Source: Escherichia phage ECML-10
Sequence record: OL631479.1
Direction: 5' to 3' (one strand)
Length of the DNA: 64,000 nucleotides
Shown here: in pieces, positions 45,870 to 54,960 of the stretch
Layout of the letters: every line of letters starts with the position of its first letter
Numbering within the stretch: the stretch's first letter is position 1
The notes under the pieces: model-generated
Told to the model about the DNA's origin: nothing
Seen by the model: the letters and a program-made list of their open reading frames with translations, nothing else
Databases searched by the model: none
Translations under genes and position numbers: made by a program

Positions 45870-46080
45870 AATGTTTTCCTCTCTTCTGGTTGTTGTGTGG
45901 GCACTTTTGCCCCTTCAAGATAAATGTTACCCCACCACCTGGCAGATGTCAACGGTTTTTATAGTTCTTATATGACAGGCAGGCCCGGTGATTGTCTCCC
46001 CCCGTCGCCAGGTGCCTGCCGTGTAATAAGTATAACAAAAAACAGGACCATTGCAAGCCCTGTTTTCTAGTTAATAAGGA

Positions 46081-46797: not shown

Positions 46798-47031
46798 CTA
46801 TGCTGTACGCTCAACTATAACAACGGCTTGAGGGATCTCACCTTCAACCACTATCAAGGCTTTTTTCTGCGTGATAGATATCTTTACCCGCTTCAGTGTG
46901 GCGGTAAAATCTTTCATTTCGTCACGTGGTGTTTTAGTGCAATGCCAGATCTCGGGCTTGCCGATCTGTAAGCTGCGCAAGAATTCCGTTTTACCTGTTT
47001 TATTCGTGATCATTTGATTCACCTTATCCAA
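46798..47031 (-). CDS. hypothetical protein
   Basis: ORF track; alternative ATG at 47013. Confidence 0.45.
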   Translation of the reverse strand: MDKVNQMITNKTGKTEFLRSLQIGKPEIWHCTKTPRDEMKDFTATLKRVKISITQKKALIVVEGEIPQAVVIVERTA

Positions 47032-47180
47032 TACCGTGGGAAGATAGGATCATGTTAGCCATAGTTGCAACCACTCCAACCGATAATGCCAGGCCAACTA
47101 CTACAACCGTGAAAATTTTATCTAACATGATTCTACCCTCATTAATGGGCGTTGCCTTATTGCCCCGCCCTACGAAATAC

Positions 47181-47208
47181 ATTCTACCTGATTTACAATT
47201 GTTGTCAA
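47181..47208 (-). promoter_or_regulatory. sigma70-type promoter on minus strand (TTGACA-16-TAGAAT)
   Basis: Plus-strand tgtcaa at 47203-47208 and attcta at 47181-47186. Confidence 0.45.
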
Positions 47209-47214
47209 ACTATT

Positions 47215-47394
47215 TTAACGATAATCATCATATGCTTTATTGACCTGGCGAATATAACATTCAAAAGCTAGATCAATAGATTTATATTCACGGATATATT
47301 CACCATAGGAAACCACATACATTTCTATAGCTTCCTCATATGCGAGGAGAATAGAATCTAAGCCTACGATCTCAGTCTTTGCAATAATAGCCAT
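47215..47394 (-). CDS. hypothetical protein (59 aa)
   Basis: SD GAGGA before ATG 47394; just below track size cutoff. Confidence 0.4.
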   Translation of the reverse strand: MAIIAKTEIVGLDSILLAYEEAIEMYVVSYGEYIREYKSIDLAFECYIRQVNKAYDDYR

Positions 47395-47470
47395 GATTTT
47401 TATCCTCTTTGTGGTTGGTGGGGCTTGTTGCCCCCATTTGATTTATATATTACAGTCTTATATGGTCATG

Positions 47471-47704
47471 TCAACTATTTTCAAAAAATTTTTCTGCTGT
47501 GATATTTTTCCCGGTAGGGTTCGCTACTTTTAAAATTCTATCATGCACCGGACGCCCGAAAGAATAAGATCCGTATACAGTAAACCAATAATTGCCGTCA
47601 GGCTGTACTATTACCGTCGCATATGGTACGCCTTTTTCGTTTTTGCTGACAAAATAGATCACATTGCCATTAATAGCCTCGGCGCGTTTAATTTGTTCCA
47701 TCAT
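47471..47704 (-). CDS. hypothetical protein (77 aa)
   Basis: SD AGGTGA; 5' leader hairpin GGGGCC-GAAAA-GGCCCC upstream. Confidence 0.55.
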   Translation of the reverse strand: MMEQIKRAEAINGNVIYFVSKNEKGVPYATVIVQPDGNYWFTVYGSYSFGRPVHDRILKVANPTGKNITAEKFFENS

Positions 47705-48586: not shown

Positions 48587-48635
48587 TCCTTGTTAACTGC
48601 GTGTTATTTTTACCACGATTAAAATTTACTTTACT

Positions 48636-48659
48636 GATGGCCCTGGCGTCAAGGCCATC
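48636..48659. repeat. conserved stop-codon-adjacent stem-loop element, copy 1 (GATGGCC-N10-GGCCATC)
   Basis: Element tttactttactGATGGCCctggcgtcaaGGCCATCtaaaaataaattta; core ends 12 nt before stop of 48671..48871. Confidence 0.6.
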
Positions 48660-48670
48660 TAAAAATAAAT

Positions 48671-48871
48671 TTACAGGCCTACAATCTCTTTGATTCGTTT
48701 AACTGCTGCCTCAGCGCCTTGGGGGTAGAAATTATGGTAACCGATCACGCGAGTGATACTAATTGCAGTTTGATGATCTTCATAATAGCCCTTGAAGATT
48801 TCTTGACCGTCAATCAGCACGGCAATTTTTTCTTCTTTTTTGAAGTTAATAACGCGGATATTGTTGCTCAT
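48671..48871 (-). CDS. hypothetical protein (66 aa)
   Basis: SD AAAGGAGAAA before ATG 48871. Confidence 0.55.
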   Translation of the reverse strand: MSNNIRVINFKKEEKIAVLIDGQEIFKGYYEDHQTAISITRVIGYHNFYPQGAEAAVKRIKEIVGL

Positions 48872-49787: not shown

Positions 49788-50168
49788 TTAAAAATTATCG
49801 CCGTAAATCTTTCCGCTTTCTGCCCACACCACCACGCGGGGCATACTATCCCACACGTCTTGTTTTAGATTGAGCGCGTGCAATTCTTCGGTGGTGCCCA
49901 TACCAGGCACGGGCTGATTGTATACTGCAAAACGACCACCTGCATAATCATAGGCCAGGGTTAAATCACACTGAATCATCTTTTTGATCATGGCGTTGAG
50001 CATAGCGTTAGCCGCATACTGGTCACGTTTTAAAGGCAACTCTTTGATTAGTTTGCGATAGTTTTCAATGTGATCGCACACTGTTTCACGTGGAAGATCT
50101 TTCATATCCTCGCGAAAGGTAACCAGGTTAAACATAACGGTGTCAATAGCTTTAGTAGTGTTTTTCAT
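49788..50168 (-). CDS. hypothetical protein (126 aa)
   Basis: SD AAAGAGGAAAAC before ATG 50168. Confidence 0.55.
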   Translation of the reverse strand: MKNTTKAIDTVMFNLVTFREDMKDLPRETVCDHIENYRKLIKELPLKRDQYAANAMLNAMIKKMIQCDLTLAYDYAGGRFAVYNQPVPGMGTTEELHALNLKQDVWDSMPRVVVWAESGKIYGDNF

Positions 50169-50482
50169 AATGTTTTCCTCTTTGTTTTGTGTGGGGCAAA
50201 CGTCTTGCCCCCCTTGAGTTTTAATATAGCAAGTTTTTAGATTATTGCAACACTTTATTTATGAAAAACTCATCTCTCCATATTCATCCACATCAAACCG
50301 CCAATCATTGGCCTCAATAAGGCCGATCAGGTTTTCGGTAGTGAACTGTTCTAGATAGGCCTCCTCCAGGTCTACGTAAACCTTGCGGGATAGCTCCCGT
50401 ACCGTCTCGGTGATCAGCTCTTCCAGGTCTTCCACTTTGTTTTCTTTGTTAGTGGCGGGAAGTTTTCCCGTTTACATGCTTA

Positions 50483-50510
50483 AGTATACTTATCGAGATT
50501 TACTTGTCAA
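50483..50510 (-). promoter_or_regulatory. minus-strand promoter (TTGACA-16-TATACT) with downstream GGGAAAACTTCCC hairpin
   Basis: Plus-strand tgtcaa at 50505-50510, agtata at 50483-50488; hairpin at 50457-50469. Confidence 0.5.
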
Positions 50511-50760
50511 CACTATTTTTTAAATTATTGTGGCGCAAAATGTTTAAAATCTCTTCAACGTCATCAACACGGCGGCAATTTTTAAACGCTACCAATTGCC
50601 CCAAGATTTTGATCACTGGGCGGCCTTGCCAGTGCCCCTGGAGAAAGCGCGCTTTAACTTTATCGGTGGAACTATCACGCCACCAAACTGCTTTATTATT
50701 GCAGTAGTAAAAATTATTCAGGACAACATCAACTTTATCAAAATTTTTTAATTTACGCAT
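50500..50760 (-). CDS. hypothetical protein (86 aa)
   Basis: SD AGGAAGGAG before ATG 50760. Confidence 0.55.
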   Translation of the reverse strand: MRKLKNFDKVDVVLNNFYYCNNKAVWWRDSSTDKVKARFLQGHWQGRPVIKILGQLVAFKNCRRVDDVEEILNILRHNNLKNSVDK

Positions 50761-50795
50761 GGCGTTTACTCCTTCCTTCTTGCTTTGATGTGGTT

Positions 50796-50824
50796 AGTAT
50801 ATCCGGACTGTTCCAAGGTGTCAA
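50796..50824 (-). promoter_or_regulatory. minus-strand promoter (TTGACA-17-TATACT)
   Basis: Plus-strand tgtcaa at 50819-50824, agtata at 50796-50801. Confidence 0.5.
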
Positions 50825-50969
50825 TCTTTAAATAAAATCACTGTTAATGATATTTTTAACACCATAAAACGGCCCTAGGTGATGTTTTCAGGTCAATAAA
50901 GGGGATTGCATAGGTAGGGGCTTTTGTGGCGTTTGTGGGGCCAACCAGGGGCGCTATTCGTAGGATAGA

Positions 50970-50999
50970 AATAAAAAGCCCCGCACAATGGCGGGGCGT
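50970..50999 (-). terminator. rho-independent terminator
   Basis: GCCCCGC-ACAATG-GCGGGGC; minus-strand reading followed by TTTTTATTTC. Confidence 0.6.
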
Positions 51000-51005
51000 T
51001 GGTTG

Positions 51006-51203
51006 CTATTTGTCTTTATGGCGGTACCGTTCCGCCTGTCGTTCACGTTCCAAAAGCAGGCCCGGCAGTTTACGATCATAATGATTCCGCCAGATCTTCC
51101 CAAATCTTTTTGGCTTATTTAGTTTATTGTTACGCTGGCGGCGTTCCGGCAGCTCTTCGGAATCATGAGATCGCTTTACAATCTTTTCAAAATTAATCTT
51201 CAT
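51006..51203 (-). CDS. small basic protein
   Basis: Start moved to ATG 51203 (SD AAGGGGGG); Arg/Lys-rich. Confidence 0.5.
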   Translation of the reverse strand: MKINFEKIVKRSHDSEELPERRQRNNKLNKPKRFGKIWRNHYDRKLPGLLLERERQAERYRHKDK

Positions 51204-51540
51204 ATATTCCCCCCTTGCTAACTTCAATATTGGCCTGAATAGCCCGGATACGGCGCTTTATAACTTCCTGATCTGTGTGATCGTATCCCCAAAAGTCTAC
51301 AATTTTTGCGCCCCCCGCTTCCAGGCGGTACAGTGTTTCCTGCATTTTGTAAGCCGGGATCGGTCGCGGTGTTACTTGGTCACCTTCTTTATTTTTATAC
51401 TTTATAATATAATCTTCATTATCGTTGAATGTCCAAAATGGATATTCTGCAAGGGCGGTACTTTCCTTTTTATCCTGGATCTTGTTTACAATTAAAGCCG
51501 TAGCAATAGCGCCAATAATAAAACTAGCCCCGCTGATCAT
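51193..51540 (-). CDS. membrane-anchored protein
   Basis: Start moved to ATG 51540 (SD AAAGGAGA); MISGASFIIGAIATALIV. Confidence 0.5.
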   Translation of the reverse strand: MISGASFIIGAIATALIVNKIQDKKESTALAEYPFWTFNDNEDYIIKYKNKEGDQVTPRPIPAYKMQETLYRLEAGGAKIVDFWGYDHTDQEVIKRRIRAIQANIEVSKGGIYED

Positions 51541-51615
51541 GTACTTTCTCCTTTCATTGTGTTGATAAACTATCTTTATAGATGGCCCTGCTACCAGGAC
51601 CACCGAAAAACCAGC

Positions 51616-51861
51616 TTATTTGACGATACCGACAAAACAGATCCCGCCTTCCCCTATATAGGCAATATCGGTAATTTGATAATTTGTCAAGATCCGCGTG
51701 TTCAGATCATTAATAAAATCGGTCATCGCGTTGGTGTAGTTGTCTTCCGTGTCTAAGGCATAATCCCAGGTGTAAACCTTTTTACGTCCGAAGCCTTTTA
51801 CCATGATACGGGCGCTTTTGGTGTTGGTAGGGGCATAATATTTGGTGATTAGTGCTGCCAT
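51616..51861 (-). CDS. hypothetical protein (81 aa)
   Basis: SD AGGAG before ATG 51861. Confidence 0.55.
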   Translation of the reverse strand: MAALITKYYAPTNTKSARIMVKGFGRKKVYTWDYALDTEDNYTNAMTDFINDLNTRILTNYQITDIAYIGEGGICFVGIVK

Positions 51862-51915
51862 GGTTTTAACTCCTATGCATTAGTTCAGTGTTAACAGTAT
51901 AACGTTTACTTTATT

Positions 51916-51939
51916 GATGGCCCTGGAGTCAAGGCCATC
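51916..51939. repeat. conserved stop-codon-adjacent stem-loop element, copy 2
   Basis: tttactttattGATGGCCctggagtcaaGGCCATCtaaaaataaattta; core ends 12 nt before stop of 51951..52292. Confidence 0.6.
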
Positions 51940-51950
51940 TAAAAATAAAT

Positions 51951-52292
51951 TTACTCGTTTTCTTCCAGTTCTGCAAGCTCTTCTTTCACTTCTTCAAGCT
52001 CTGTATGCAATTCCTGGTATTCTTCATCGTCCTCAATATCCAGGCTGTCGATGTAGTCGCTAAATCCGCAGCGGTAAGCGATAGGATCTAGCTCCTTGAG
52101 GATACGCGACGGAAGAAAAGAAATGTTTCCGATCATAATTTCGCCGTAGATCTCGTCTAACCATTCATCATAGTTTTCGTCGTACTTGTCCTCGTCGATT
52201 TCAAAGTTATCGATCTTGTTCTCAAGGTCTGCGATCTGTTTTTTCAGCGCGGCGATCTGCATAGCTTTTTCTGCGGCGGTCATAGTAGTCAT
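51951..52292 (-). CDS. hypothetical acidic protein, predicted coiled coil
   Basis: SD AAAAGGAGAAAA before ATG 52292. Confidence 0.55.
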   Translation of the reverse strand: MTTMTAAEKAMQIAALKKQIADLENKIDNFEIDEDKYDENYDEWLDEIYGEIMIGNISFLPSRILKELDPIAYRCGFSDYIDSLDIEDDEEYQELHTELEEVKEELAELEENE

Positions 52293-52343
52293 AGTGTTTT
52301 CTCCTTTTGTGTGCTCTGGGAAGTTTTCCCGTTTACGTGTTTA

Positions 52344-52371
52344 AGTATATCGATCTAAGTTAGTTTGTCAA
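52344..52371 (-). promoter_or_regulatory. minus-strand promoter (TTGACA-16-TATACT) with downstream GGGAAAACTTCCC hairpin
   Basis: Plus-strand tgtcaa at 52366-52371, agtata at 52344-52349; hairpin at 52317-52330. Confidence 0.5.
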
Positions 52372-52491
52372 TTAAAAATTTAAGAAAAATTTTGCAAAAC
52401 TGTTAGCGCTACTCATTAACATTTGCGCCAGGATGTAACCGACAACGCAAACGATAATAGTTATCTTTGTGTATTGGCGTGTAGTGCTCAT
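52369..52491 (-). CDS. 40-aa hydrophobic micro-protein
   Basis: SD AAAGGGGG before ATG 52491; below track cutoff. Confidence 0.35.
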
Positions 52492-52536
52492 CTTAAAGCC
52501 CCCTTTTTCGCTTAGTTGAGATTAGTTTACTTTATT

Positions 52537-52560
52537 GAAGGCCCTGGAGTCAAGGCCATC
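52537..52560. repeat. conserved stop-codon-adjacent stem-loop element, copy 3 (one mismatch in stem)
   Basis: tttactttattGAAGGCCctggagtcaaGGCCATCtaaaaataaactta; core ends 12 nt before stop of 52572..52976. Confidence 0.55.
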
Positions 52561-52571
52561 TAAAAATAAAC

Positions 52572-52976
52572 TTAGTAAGTTTTCAGTACTTTACCGTCCA
52601 ACCTGTCAAGCTGGATCTCGATAGCTGCAGAAAACCTATTGTAAACCACATCGCCCATAGAATCCAACCAGTCTATGACATTATACACTTGCTCTTTGTT
52701 CTTGCAGGTCCGGATCCGTTTCATGATGTAAGCCGGATCAATATTGGTACTCTCGTTGGTGTTCCCCTGTACCTGGTTTGCCGTATTAGTTACATCTTTA
52801 ATGGCCTTTACCACCACCTGGAATGGCTTTAAGGTGCCTTTTGCGTTCATCTCACGCGCTTTTGCGGCGCGGTTGTTATATGTTACACAACGGCGGCAAA
52901 TGTTGACCAAATGCATGTCAATAATTTTTTCATCGTTTGCCAGTTCGTTCATGATGCGGCGTACGTTCTTATTCAT
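52572..52976 (-). CDS. hypothetical protein (134 aa)
   Basis: SD AGAGGAAAAG before ATG 52976. Confidence 0.55.
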   Translation of the reverse strand: MNKNVRRIMNELANDEKIIDMHLVNICRRCVTYNNRAAKAREMNAKGTLKPFQVVVKAIKDVTNTANQVQGNTNESTNIDPAYIMKRIRTCKNKEQVYNVIDWLDSMGDVVYNRFSAAIEIQLDRLDGKVLKTY

Positions 52977-53055
52977 AGCTTTTCCTCTGTGTTGGCGGGA
53001 TGTTCCCCGCCTTTTGTGTCTAGTTTACTTAAATTTTGCAGCGTGTCAATGATTT

Positions 53056-53486: not shown

Positions 53487-53515
53487 AGTGTATTTTGTGT
53501 CAGGCCATATGTCAA
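53487..53515 (-). promoter_or_regulatory. minus-strand promoter (TTGACA-17-TACACT)
   Basis: Plus-strand tgtcaa at 53510-53515, agtgta at 53487-53492. Confidence 0.45.
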
Positions 53516-54419: not shown

Positions 54420-54960
54420 AATTACCCTCCGTAACAATTTCCTATAAAACAGTATCCCATAAAATATTCCCATATAGAAATTTTAAAAATCCATTTCTGA
54501 AAACGAAAAATCGATTTCGTCCCCAAAAATTTCAGGTCGAGATCCGGAACGATTTCCAGAAAATCCGATTCAGAAAACGAAAAACAGATCGAGTACTGAG
54601 AAATTTATCGAGAAAAATTTTCAGAAAATCCAAGCCATGAAATGAAAAGTAGATCGAGTACTTGGAAAGCTGCACCGCAACTTCAAGATAGTGGTTAGAT
54701 TGTTACCATAGAAGGTTAAGGGCAAGTGGAGGAAGTTCTAGTAGAGGGAGGTTAGCATGTGTGGGAAATCTATAATGGTGGCCTGGAATATGGTGCAAAC
54801 GATAGGATGAGTTATTCAGCTTGTCGCGCCTACTCTGAAAAATCCATTTTAGTTTTCGATCCATTTTCTGATTTTCTAAGAATTTTAAAATATCCAGCCC
54901 GGTGAAATATCAAAAGGAGGAAATCCATTTTAGAAATCCCCCTTACACTTGATATGCCAG
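54420..54960. repeat. AT-rich iteron-dense noncoding region
   Basis: Repeated GAAAATCC, TTCAGAAAACGAAAAA, AGATCGAGTACT and AAATCCATTTTAG motifs; no credible ORF. Confidence 0.55.

What the first reader, a model, noticed from the sequence alone, without database searches (positions are those of the whole stretch)
50455..52375. Duplicated promoter module TTGACA-N16-TATACT followed by a GGGAAAACTTCCC hairpin
Two minus-strand copies (plus-strand coordinates 50457-50510 and 52317-52371) share about 40 nt: a near-consensus -35, a TATACT -10, then TAAGCA(T/C)GTAAAC and a 5-bp hairpin GGGAA-AAC-TTCCC. Other minus-strand promoters at 50796-50824 and 53487-53515 use the same -10 variants (TATACT/TACACT). 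This points to a promoter subclass, possibly temporally regulated, with a leader hairpin.
Basis: seen in the sequence. Interest (0 to 1): 0.55.

Follow-up and report, generated by a model that had tools for sequence, protein, structure and literature searches.

The report
Phage early promoters with leader hairpins
Two copies of a strong host-type early promoter in an rV5-like E. coli phage are each followed by the same small hairpin; they belong to a wider set of promoter-plus-hairpin cassettes shared by several large coliphages, so the promoters are ordinary, while the hairpin's role (probably shielding early messenger RNAs) is untested.

Summary
The window is a Vequintavirus (rV5-like coliphage). 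On the minus strand, 52371-52318 and 50510-50457 both read TTGACA-N16-TATACT, then 13 nt, then GGGAAAACTTCCC. They share 45/55 positions and a 19-nt exact run (chance 0.01). The upstream copy is rV5's annotated sigma70 promoter P192. The downstream copy precedes ORF185, which this phage has truncated by a 457-bp deletion.

The leader hairpin is real and more general. Six or seven of 18 early promoters here carry a G-run/C-run stem starting 10-13 nt after the -10 (P~2e-8). A third promoter (53049) carries the related stem GGCGGG...CCCGCC. The stem GGCGGGAA...TTCCCGCC also recurs behind early promoters of phi92-like phages and of jumbo phage 121Q.

Stems are kept while loops change, no U-tract follows, and the rest of each leader is U-poor and unstructured. 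My best reading is modular early-promoter cassettes, akin to the T4-like PeSLs but with the stem-loop moved into the transcript, where it probably protects or insulates early mRNA. No transcription start site has been mapped and the function is inferred. Interest is modest.

The parts
52344..52371 (-). Promoter P192: -35 TTGACA (52371-52366), 16-nt spacer, -10 TATACT (52349-52344). It lies directly after the stop codon of the 39-aa ORF193.
   Evidence: annotated as sigma70 promoter P192 in rV5
52318..52330 (-). Leader hairpin GGGAA-AAC-TTCCC, starting 13 nt after the -10. RNA fold energy is -5.5 kcal/mol.
52290..52317 (-). A/C-rich, U-poor, unstructured leader carrying the Shine-Dalgarno AGGAG (52305-52301) and the ATG (52292-52290) of the ORF192 homologue (51951-52292, PHROG 9294, function unknown).
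50483..50510 (-). Promoter P185: -35 TTGACA (50510-50505), 16-nt spacer, -10 TATACT (50488-50483). The -35 overlaps the last codons of ORF186.
   Evidence: predicted promoter in Gotham
50456..50470 (-). Leader hairpin CGGGAA-AAC-TTCCCG (6 bp). Most relatives carry the 8-bp form GGCGGGAA-AAC-TTCCCGCC starting 10 nt after the -10 (-14.6 kcal/mol, z = -5.2).
50429..50449 (-). Junction of a 457-bp deletion between near-repeats AACAAAGAAAA and AACAAGAAAA. The deletion removed the Shine-Dalgarno sequence and about 150 codons of ORF185. The 58-codon C-terminal remnant is 50259-50435.
53022..53049 (-). Promoter upstream of the ORF194 homologue: TTGACA-N16-TAAACT.
52994..53011 (-). Third member of the same stem family: GGCGGG-GAACAT-CCCGCC here (-13.3 kcal/mol); GGCGGGAA-TGT-TTCCCGCC in rV5, Alma, V18, ECP26 and FFH2.
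47420..47474 (-). Promoter TTGACA-N16-TAATAT (47474-47447) with leader hairpin GGGGC-AACAA-GCCCC (47434-47420).
47147..47208 (-). Promoter TTGACA-N16-TAGAAT (47208-47181) with leader hairpin GGGCG...CGCCC (47170-47147). The hairpin, leader and downstream genes are shared with Justusliebigvirus phage inny.
50193..50250 (-). Promoter TTGCAA-N16-TATATT with TG before the -10 (50250-50223), and leader hairpin GGGGCAA-GACGT-TTGCCCC (50211-50193), upstream of the ORF184 homologue.
45899..45952 (-). Promoter P168 (TTGACA-N17-TAACAT, 45952-45924) with leader hairpin GGGCA-AAAG-TGCCC (45912-45899).
50796..50824 (-). Promoter P186 (TTGACA-N17-TATACT) with no hairpin. It serves as a comparator and shows that TATACT does not define the hairpin class.
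   Evidence: annotated in rV5
52521..52575 (-). Second cassette type (repeat family D1): a T-rich upstream stretch, the palindrome GATGGCC-TTGACTCC-AGGGCC(T/A)TC enclosing a -35-like TTGAC, then TAAACT 18 nt on. It flanks the ORF193-P192-ORF192 module on the upstream side.
51900..51954 (-). D1 copy flanking the ORF193-P192-ORF192 module on the downstream side. Recombination between this copy and 52521-52575 explains the absence of the module in phage ECP26.
48620..48674 (-). A further D1 copy. A degenerate copy lies at 51565-51619.

Best explanation
The two copies are paralogous early-gene regulatory cassettes of a Vequintavirus, read by the host sigma70 RNA polymerase. Each cassette has five parts: an A/T-rich upstream stretch, TTGACA-N16-TATACT, a short A-rich start region, a G-run/C-run stem-loop, and an A/C-rich unstructured leader with a Shine-Dalgarno sequence.

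The stem-loop lies downstream of the start site, so it is transcribed from its own promoter. It would sit about 4-8 nt from the 5' end of the early mRNA. I infer that it acts in the RNA as a 5'-proximal block that slows 5'-end-dependent attack and scanning by RNase E (and RppH). It would also keep the ribosome-binding site free of pairing with whatever lies upstream.

The cassettes also serve as recombination joints, so genes together with their promoter and hairpin are gained, lost and exchanged within and between coliphage lineages. That is why two or three promoters in one genome carry the same stem.

Shown: sequence anatomy, recurrence, conservation pattern, module shuffling. Inferred: promoter activity, start site, and RNA-level function.
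For: Identity: the window is 94-95% identical to rV5-like phages. P192 is annotated as a sigma70 promoter in rV5, and both copies are predicted promoters in Gotham.

Recurrence: 6 of 18 minus-strand promoters in 44.5-64 kb (7 counting P192) have a perfect GC-rich stem of at least 5 bp starting 10-12 nt after the -10, against a 1% background; binomial P about 2e-8. The same census gives 5/18 in Justusliebigvirus phage inny (P = 2e-6) and 4/7 in jumbo phage 121Q (P = 3.5e-6). RB49 gives 1/19, because its stem-loops lie inside the promoter.

Stem family: GGCGGGAA-N3-TTCCCGCC follows P185, P192 (short form) and P194 in Vequintaviruses. Loops are AAC, CAA, TGT, ACA or GTACA. The same stem occurs in 121Q, in inny and in L021.

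Structure is kept through sequence change. P194 in MiataMamis reads GGCGGUUG-AUACU-CAGCCGCC, with three inner pairs replaced (-15.6 kcal/mol). P184 in ECP26 has a different 9-bp stem. Among variants that differ in stability between strands, 8 favour the mRNA strand and 3 the antisense strand.

Not a terminator: none of these hairpins is flagged on the sense strand, whereas genuine hairpin-plus-U-tract terminators occur nearby, for example at 50997-50978.

Leader: after each hairpin the predicted fold is open up to the AUG. T content is 9%, against 26% for the strand.

Start site by analogy: the related cassettes share ACATC(A/G)AGA with T7 A1, whose annotated +1 is the 8th nt after its -10. 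That puts the 8-bp hairpins at about +4.

Background knowledge: RNase E is 5'-end dependent and is hindered by base-paired 5' ends and by obstacles to scanning (PMC3997798; abstract of PMC11194081).

Module shuffling: ECP26 lacks ORF193-P192-ORF192 exactly between two D1 copies. The window's 47208 cassette and its genes are 87% identical to inny, with the breakpoint at AAAATAGT|TTGACA.
Against: No transcription start site has been mapped in any of these phages, so the distance from the 5' end is a guess.

In this window the two hairpins of the finding are the weakest of the class (-5.5 kcal/mol with z = -1.07; -7.8 kcal/mol with z = -2.0). They start 12-13 nt after the -10, leaving about 5-6 unpaired nt, which is poor for classical 5'-terminal protection.

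Gotham has lost the hairpin at the 47474 orthologue but kept the gene, so the hairpin is dispensable at least there.

The repeated use of one particular stem sequence in three lineages is not required by a stability-only role. It could instead mean sequence-specific recognition, or simply common descent.

Three variants pair better on the antisense strand.

For the related PeSL cassettes the only tested function of the stem-loop is attenuation of upstream transcription (PMC2839356).

My promoter list was assembled by consensus matching, and some cassettes are paralogues, so the binomial P overstates independence.
Confidence: 0.5

Rival explanations
1. A PeSL-type attenuator. The stem-loop acts on transcripts arriving from the upstream gene, terminating or pausing them or forming a protective 3' end after processing. 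Each small early gene would then be expressed mainly from its own promoter, and early transcription would not spill downstream.
For: RB49/phi1 PeSLs have the same ingredients: consensus sigma70 promoter, A/T-rich upstream stretch, G(n)-loop-C(n) stem-loop, Shine-Dalgarno sequence, and location among ORFan genes. One PeSL stem-loop reduced downstream lacZ about as much as rrnB T1 (PMC2839356). I saw the RB49 cassettes directly, and they share the ACATC start region. The annotators of phage Alma labelled these hairpins 'terminator'. The genes here are densely packed, each with its own promoter.
Against: No U-tract follows any of the hairpins; what follows is A/C-rich. Real terminators with U-tracts exist in the same region. 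Placed after the start site, a terminator would also cut off the cassette's own transcripts. RB49 and PST avoid this by placing the stem-loop inside or upstream of the promoter.
Confidence: 0.2
2. A sequence-specific recognition site. The palindrome GGCGGGAA-N3-TTCCCGCC would be an operator in DNA, or a protein-binding stem in RNA, for a phage or host factor that co-regulates P185, P192 and P194, for example by shutting off a subset of early genes. This is the closest form of the reader's 'temporally regulated subclass'.
For: The same half-sites are kept at three promoters in Vequintaviruses and recur in phi92-like phages and in 121Q, while the central 3-5 nt vary freely. That is the pattern expected for a dimer binding two half-sites. 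The site overlaps about +4 to +25, a position from which a bound protein could block RNA polymerase.
Against: Other early promoters carry unrelated stems at the same position: GGGGC/GCCCC, GGGCA/TGCCC, GGGCG/CGCCC and GGGGAGAG/CTCTCCCC. Orthologous sites change half-site sequence while keeping the pairing (MiataMamis P194). The half-site centres are only 8 bp apart for the 5-bp core. No candidate regulator was found: neighbouring proteins have no Pfam domain, and their PHROG families have unknown function. Horizontal spread of cassettes explains the recurrence without any binding factor.
Confidence: 0.13
3. A neutral by-product. The shared 40 nt simply reflect duplication or gene conversion of a promoter segment. 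The small palindrome has no function of its own, or functions only as a recombination hot spot.
For: The two hairpins in this window are weak. One orthologous hairpin was lost without loss of the gene (Gotham). The cassettes are demonstrably recombination joints. A patchwork distribution of the GTAAAC linker between P185 and P192 across genomes suggests exchange between the two cassettes.
Against: The core GGGAA/TTCCC is invariant at P185 in 10 of 10 genomes and at P192 in 8 of 9 genomes that carry it, while the adjacent linker and loop vary. Position-specific hairpins are enriched far above background in three lineages. Stems are maintained through compensatory change.
Confidence: 0.1
4. A terminator for antisense (plus-strand) transcription. 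On this reading the hairpins stop stray transcripts running against the early genes before they collide with the promoters.
For: Read on the plus strand, three of the hairpins are followed by T-rich tails and are flagged as terminator-like (52994-53011, 50193-50211, 47420-47434).
Against: The two hairpins of the finding are not flagged on either strand. The T-richness follows automatically from the A-rich start region of the promoters. No plus-strand genes or strong plus-strand promoters lie in 45-54 kb. G.U-containing variants mostly favour the mRNA strand.
Confidence: 0.05

Closest known systems
PeSL (promoter-early stem-loop) cassettes of T4-like phages RB49/phi1, PST and nt-1 (Arbiol et al. 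2010, PMC2839356; Comeau et al. 2014, PMC4122927)
   Same: Both have a near-consensus sigma70 promoter with an A/T-rich upstream stretch, a G-run/C-run stem-loop, a Shine-Dalgarno sequence and a start codon. Both are repeated many times among small ORFan early genes. Both show gene gain and loss with breakpoints in the cassettes. They even share the ACATC... start region, and rV5 shares several early ORFs with RB49.
   Different: In RB49 the stem-loop lies between the -35 and -10 or over the -10; in PST it lies upstream of the promoter. In those phages it is therefore not part of the cassette's own transcript. Here, and in 121Q and phi92-like phages, it lies after the start site and is transcribed. 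The host phage here is not T4-like. The window's second cassette type (D1, palindrome around the -35) is closer to the original PeSL layout.
5'-terminal stem-loops that stabilise E. coli mRNAs (ompA and papA leaders; the phage T7 gene 10 leader). These examples come from my own knowledge; the references are listed in PMC3997798.
   Same: A short stable hairpin close to the 5' end, followed by an open ribosome-binding site. Its sequence matters little. It protects against 5'-end-dependent RNase E attack (PMC3997798; abstract of PMC11194081).
   Different: Those hairpins begin within about 0-4 nt of a mapped 5' end and their effect has been measured. Here the start site is unmapped, the offset is probably 3-8 nt, and nothing has been measured.
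Annotated sigma70 early promoters of rV5 (Kropinski et al. 2013, PMC3606486) and the Certrevirus early-promoter consensus AAAA-N3-TGTTGAC-N19-TATAAT (PMC7344957)
   Same: P192, P186, P168 and P195A/B of the window are the orthologues of promoters annotated in rV5. The A-rich upstream stretch plus (TG)TTGACA matches the Certrevirus consensus.
   Different: Those papers describe only the -35 and -10. P185, P194, P184 and the 47208 and 47474 promoters are not annotated in rV5, and neither paper mentions a hairpin or stem-loop in connection with the promoters (term searches).
Promoter-proximal RNA hairpins that act on RNA polymerase: lambda nut boxB with N protein, and HK022 put (from my own knowledge)
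   Same: A small hairpin in the nascent RNA just downstream of early phage promoters.
   Different: boxB is recognised through a conserved purine-rich pentaloop and is paired with a boxA element. Here the loops vary freely (AAC, CAA, TGT, ACA, TAG, CAC) and no GCUCUU-type boxA is present. put RNAs are about 70 nt with two stems.

Membership tests
sigma70-dependent promoter | -35 TTGACA-like and -10 TATAAT-like hexamers 16-18 bp apart, correctly oriented upstream of a gene | tested here: met
   Both copies match 11 of 12 positions with a 16-nt spacer. Each is 30-55 nt upstream of a Shine-Dalgarno sequence and ATG in relatives. Conserved in 9-10 related genomes.
sigma70-dependent promoter | Transcription actually starts 6-9 nt downstream of the -10 | not testable with these tools
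   No start-site data found for Vequintavirinae, phi92-like or 121Q-like phages.
PeSL cassette | Strong sigma70-like promoter with an A/T-rich upstream stretch, ending in a Shine-Dalgarno sequence and start codon | tested here: met
   compared directly with RB49 cassettes
PeSL cassette | Adjacent stable stem-loop, typically a G-run, a loop and a C-run | tested here: met
   All seven hairpins have a G-rich 5' arm and a C-rich 3' arm.
PeSL cassette | Stem-loop placed inside the promoter (between the -35 and -10, or over the -10) or just upstream of it | tested here: not met
   Here it starts 10-13 nt downstream of the -10. In RB49 it sits in the spacer or over the -10, and only 1 of 19 promoters has a downstream hairpin. 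The D1 cassette of the window (palindrome around the -35) does meet this feature.
PeSL cassette | Many copies, concentrated among small non-essential ORFan genes | tested here: met
   At least 7 hairpin cassettes and 4 D1 copies lie in 45.9-53.1 kb among genes of 39-136 codons with no Pfam domain.
PeSL cassette | Insertions, deletions or replacements of genes with breakpoints in the cassettes | tested here: met
   ECP26 lacks ORF193-P192-ORF192 between two D1 copies. In the comparison of the window with inny, the module junction falls at the -35 of the 47208 cassette.
PeSL cassette | Stem-loop attenuates upstream transcription; cassettes form mini-circles | not testable with these tools
   Both are experimental properties (PMC2839356).
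Intrinsic (Rho-independent) terminator | GC-rich hairpin followed directly by a U-tract on the transcribed strand | tested here: not met
   None of the promoter-proximal hairpins is flagged on the minus strand; their tails are A/C-rich. Three are terminator-like only when read on the plus strand.
5'-terminal mRNA-stabilising stem-loop | Stable hairpin within a few nt of the primary 5' end | tested here: inconclusive
   Stability is good for most cassettes (-8.6 to -16.8 kcal/mol) but weak for the two in the finding. The offset from the 5' end rests on an assumed start at the 7th or 8th nt after the -10, by analogy with T7 A1.
lambda-type nut site (boxA + boxB) | Hairpin with a conserved loop recognised by an N-like protein, plus a boxA element | tested here: not met
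   Loops differ between orthologues and paralogues, and no boxA-like GCUCUU is present.
Any curated RNA family (Rfam 15) | Covariance-model match at or above the gathering score | tested here: not met
   The only match in 44-56 kb is Clostridium-PBP at 34.9 bits, against a gathering score of 94.4 (E = 0.13), at 50166-50237.

The most novel reading that the evidence does not exclude
The stem GGCGGGAA...TTCCCGCC sits a fixed few nucleotides after early promoters in three separate coliphage lineages: Vequintavirus, phi92-like Justusliebigvirus and the jumbo Asteriusvirus 121Q. The most novel reading is that it is a specific recognition element rather than just a stable hairpin. It would tag a set of early phage transcripts, or their promoters, for a shared host or phage factor. 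One example would be exempting them from phage-induced host mRNA decay; another would be switching them off together.
Probability: 0.12. Interest if true: 0.7.

Novelty: new variant of a known kind. Interest (0 to 1): 0.4.

Why it matters
The promoters themselves add little: one is already annotated in rV5, and the class is the usual host-type early promoter. Three things are new.

First, there is a recurrent leader design: a G-run/C-run hairpin a few nt after the start site, followed by a U-poor open leader. It is statistically tied to early promoters in three large-coliphage lineages. The rV5, Certrevirus and 121Q-related papers I searched do not mention it.

Second, promoter-plus-stem-loop cassettes with breakpoint-associated gene shuffling, so far described for T4-like phages, also operate in rV5-like and phi92-like phages. 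Modules are exchanged between these subfamilies.

Third, moving the stem-loop from inside the promoter (RB49) into the transcript changes what it can do. That gives a clean natural comparison for testing whether such hairpins act as attenuators or as 5' mRNA protectors.

Practically, these short cassettes are candidate strong, insulated expression parts. They are also markers for module boundaries in therapeutic rV5-like phages.

Tried and rejected
- **Rfam** (12 kb, permissive E-value): one sub-threshold chance hit only.
- **IMG/VR pattern scan** for TATAMT-N8-16-CGGGAA-N3-TTCCCG: 27 hits, about what I estimated by hand for chance. Only four loci (five sites) had a plausible -35. Several others were ordinary terminators. 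The exact motif is therefore not widespread there.
- **Distant homologues of ORF192** in IMG/VR (40-48% identity): none carries the cassette upstream.
- **Upstream of the ORF185 homologue in 121Q:** a perfect promoter but no hairpin, so the hairpin does not travel with that gene.
- **Pfam and PHROGs for the neighbouring proteins:** no domain, or a family of unknown function.
- **MAFFT alignments A1 and A2 of the hairpin family:** arms were put out of register wherever loop lengths differ. I did not run the count of structure pairs on them and folded each variant separately instead. The covariation evidence is therefore case-by-case, not a formal test.
- **rV5's annotated promoter set as an unbiased sample:** only 10 fall in the segment fetched, and the authors' stringent list omits P185, P194 and P184.
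- **RfaH ops element (GGCGGTAGCGTG), from my own knowledge:** it shares GGCGG with the stem, but the critical T6 and the 3' half are not conserved. Rejected.
- **rrn/lambda boxA:** P185's CACUAACAA resembles UUUAACAA, but the U-rich core is missing and other leaders lack it. Rejected.
- **Literature searches** for start-site or transcriptome data on these phages found nothing usable.

Full report
**What the window is.** The 4-kb stretch around the finding is 94-95% identical to about 120 rV5-like phages (genus Vequintavirus), such as navn, rV5, FV3 and JES2013. The finding lies in the long minus-strand block of small early genes. In rV5 these are ORF164-238, which the rV5 paper treats as one transcriptional unit driven by host-type promoters (PMC3606486).

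**Checking the observation.** On the minus strand both copies read TTGACA, 16 nt, TATACT, 13 nt, GGGAAAACTTCCC.
- The repeat finder reports them as a 54-nt pair at 80% identity.
- The 19-mer GTAAACGGGAAAACTTCCC occurs twice, against 0.01 expected.
- Copy B pairs one base further out (CGGGAA...TTCCCG).
- As RNA the two hairpins are modest: -5.5 kcal/mol (z = -1.07) and -7.8 kcal/mol (z = -2.0).

**What the copies are in relatives.**
- The upstream copy is annotated in the rV5 record as 'Sigma70-type promoter; P192'.
- Phage Gotham carries PhagePromoter predictions on both copies.
- P192 lies directly after the stop of a 39-codon membrane-peptide ORF (ORF193). It sits 51 nt before the ATG of ORF192, a 113-aa protein of unknown function.
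- The downstream copy precedes ORF185, a 207-aa protein found in many large phages.
- In the window a 457-bp deletion between the near-repeats AACAAAGAAAA and AACAAGAAAA has removed ORF185's ribosome-binding site and about 150 codons. Every full-coverage relative listed carries the extra 457 bp. Here, therefore, this promoter drives only a remnant.

**The pair is old and has a third member.**
- P185 and P192 are 73-82% alike from the -35 to the hairpin in every Vequintavirus examined. The window has the longest exact run.
- In most genomes P185 carries the longer stem GGCGGGAA-AAC-TTCCCGCC, starting 10 nt after the -10 (-14.6 kcal/mol, z = -5.2).
- The promoter of ORF194 (window 53049-53022) carries the same stem with another loop. 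It is GGCGGGAA-TGT-TTCCCGCC in rV5, Alma, V18, ECP26 and FFH2. The loop is ACA in a metagenomic relative. The window itself has GGCGGG-GAACAT-CCCGCC.
- The -10 hexamer is not constant among orthologues (TATACT or TATAAT), and P186, another TATACT promoter, has no hairpin.

**The hairpin is part of a general design.**
- Other minus-strand promoters carry unrelated G-run/C-run stems at the same place: 45952 (rV5's P168), 47208, 47474 and 50250. Each is followed by an A/C-rich leader and a Shine-Dalgarno sequence.
- I used a fixed rule: a perfect stem of at least 5 bp with at least 4 G-C pairs, a loop of 3-14 nt, and a start 9-14 nt after the -10. Six of 18 promoters qualify (seven with P192). 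A random site qualifies 1% of the time. Binomial P is about 2e-8.
- This P value is generous, because some cassettes are paralogues and I assembled the promoter list myself. Five independent stem types still leave it very small.
- After each hairpin the predicted fold is open up to the AUG. The leaders are 9% T, against 26% for the strand.

**Structure or sequence?**
- Within orthologous sites the stem is kept while the loop and the linker drift.
- Two cases show wholesale compensatory change. P194 in MiataMamis is GGCGGUUG-AUACU-CAGCCGCC, with three inner pairs replaced, and is as stable as the usual form. P184 in ECP26 has a different 9-bp stem.
- Among variants whose stability differs between strands, 8 favour the mRNA strand and 3 the antisense strand. 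This is suggestive, not significant.
- One orthologue (Gotham, at the 47474 site) has lost its hairpin.
- MAFFT could not keep the arms in register, so I give no formal covariation statistic.

**Not a terminator.** None of these hairpins is followed by a U-tract on the sense strand, and the scan does not flag them there. It does find proper terminators nearby, such as 50997-50978. Three hairpins are terminator-like only on the opposite strand, which follows from the A-rich start region. The Alma record labels them 'terminator'; I regard that as a software call. Rfam has nothing for the region.

**Other phages.**
- Upstream of genes around the ORF185 homologue of jumbo phage 121Q, 8 of 12 gene starts have TTGCAA-N16-TATAAT, then gttttACATCGAGA, then a hairpin. 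Several of those hairpins are GCGGGAA-N3-TTCCCGC.
- An IMG/VR contig that proved to be phi92-like (Justusliebigvirus), and phage inny itself, carry GGCGGGAAA-TGG-TTTCCCGCC and its relatives. The census for inny is 5/18 (P = 2e-6) and for 121Q 4/7 (P = 3.5e-6).
- Av-05 (Avunavirus) has two or three such cassettes.
- The exact motif is otherwise at about chance level in IMG/VR, by my own estimate.
- The start region ACATC(A/G)AGA resembles that of T7 A1, whose annotated +1 is the 8th nt after the -10. By that analogy the 8-bp hairpins begin at about +4, and those of the finding at about +5 to +6.

**Relation to PeSLs.**
- Arbiol et al. and Comeau et al. described promoter-early stem-loop cassettes in T4-like phages. 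These combine a consensus sigma70 promoter, an A/T-rich upstream stretch, a G(n)-loop-C(n) stem-loop and a Shine-Dalgarno sequence. They are repeated among ORFans and mediate gene shuffling, and one stem-loop was shown to attenuate transcription.
- I looked at RB49 directly. Its stem-loops sit between the -35 and -10 (GGGGATC...GATCCCC) or over the -10. Only 1 of 19 promoters has a downstream hairpin.
- The window's cassettes share every PeSL ingredient except that position.
- The window's second repeat family (D1: 52521-52575, 51900-51954, 48620-48674, and a degenerate copy at 51565-51619) has a palindrome around a -35-like TTGAC. It is closer to the original layout.
- Shuffling is visible twice. 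ECP26 lacks ORF193-P192-ORF192 exactly between two D1 copies. The window's 47208 hairpin, leader and two genes are 87% identical to inny, and the 48 nt upstream of the -35 match a different inny locus, so the junction is AAAATAGT|TTGACA.

**How it most likely works.**
- Because the stem-loop is downstream of the start site, a terminator there would also cut off the cassette's own transcripts. RB49 and PST avoid this by their placement.
- Three features together look like a leader built for a stable, efficiently translated mRNA: a stable hairpin a few nt from the 5' end, a leader that cannot pair, and scarcity of U.
- RNase E is stimulated by an accessible 5' end, and the abstract of PMC11194081 describes obstacles in transcripts that protect downstream sites from it (PMC3997798; abstract of PMC11194081).
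- I therefore put about 0.5 on 'early-promoter cassette whose transcribed hairpin protects or insulates the mRNA'. I put 0.2 on a PeSL-type attenuator of upstream transcription and 0.13 on a sequence-specific operator or RNA-binding site. That last rival is favoured by the reuse of one stem in three lineages. It is disfavoured by unrelated stems at the same position and by compensatory change. I put 0.1 on a neutral relic or recombination site and 0.05 on an antisense terminator.
- The two hairpins of the finding are the weakest and most distal of the class, so they may be decayed members.

**Verdict.** It is partly wrong: there is no TATACT subclass and no evidence on timing. The feature is a new variant of a known kind, with modest interest (0.4).

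Noticed in passing
window 52521-52575, 51900-51954, 48620-48674, 51565-51619 (minus-strand sense): Repeat family D1. It has a T-rich stretch, then the palindrome GATGGCC-TTGACnCC-AGGGCCATC enclosing a -35-like TTGAC, then TAAACT or TAAATT 18 nt on. It sits between a stop codon and the next gene. No T-run follows it on either strand. The loop position varies among relatives (TTGACT, TTGACA or TTGACG). It looks like a second promoter-plus-palindrome cassette type, closer to the RB49 PeSL layout.
   Followed up: partly
window 51900-52575, compared with L013 (phage ECP26) 6890-7060: ECP26 lacks the whole ORF193-P192-ORF192 module. Its single D1 copy has the upstream flank of window copy 52560 and the downstream flank of copy 51939. 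This is a clean deletion or insertion by recombination between two D1 copies.
   Followed up: yes
window 50429-50449 (junction); ORF185 remnant 50259-50435: A 457-bp deletion between AACAAAGAAAA and AACAAGAAAA removed the ribosome-binding site and N-terminal three quarters of ORF185. This conserved 207-aa early protein (PHROG 5162) is also found in Av-05 and in jumbo phages (121Q, RaK2). Every full-length relative listed carries the extra 457 bp.
   Followed up: yes
window 46800-47260, compared with L049 (phage inny) 17886-18302 and 12657-12704: The 47208 promoter cassette with its hairpin, leader and two small genes is 87% identical to a Justusliebigvirus (a different subfamily), and nearly identical from the hairpin onward. 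The 48 nt before the -35 match another inny locus 5 kb away. This is module exchange with the breakpoint at the promoter.
   Followed up: partly
window 54468-54668: Three diverged direct repeats of 62-74 nt (61-76% identity) lie in an apparently non-coding stretch of the early region. A long imperfect hairpin is at 54530-54493. No explanation.
   Followed up: no
L018 (phage 121Q), L021/L049 (phi92-like), L048 (RB49), L046 (T7 A1): Early promoters of several unrelated coliphages share the start region ACATC(A/G)A(G/A)A, as in T7 A1's ccATCGAGAGGG. In RB49 it reads acacACATACC or ccATCAAGAC.
   Followed up: partly
search results: Seventeen GenBank records named 'Campylobacter phage', with C. jejuni given as host, are 91-95% identical to this E. 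coli Vequintavirus over the region. They are probably mislabelled, or E. coli phages carried along in those preparations.
   Followed up: no
window 50166-50237 (minus): A sub-threshold Rfam match to Clostridium-PBP RNA (34.9 bits against a gathering score of 94.4, E = 0.13) overlaps the ORF184 promoter leader and its hairpin. I take it as chance.
   Followed up: no
L047 (rV5 100001-137947) feature table: Several rV5 early ORFs (167, 205, 206, 209, 210, 231) are annotated as similar to RB49 hypothetical proteins. The two phage groups therefore draw on a common pool of early accessory genes as well as on similar regulatory cassettes.
   Followed up: no
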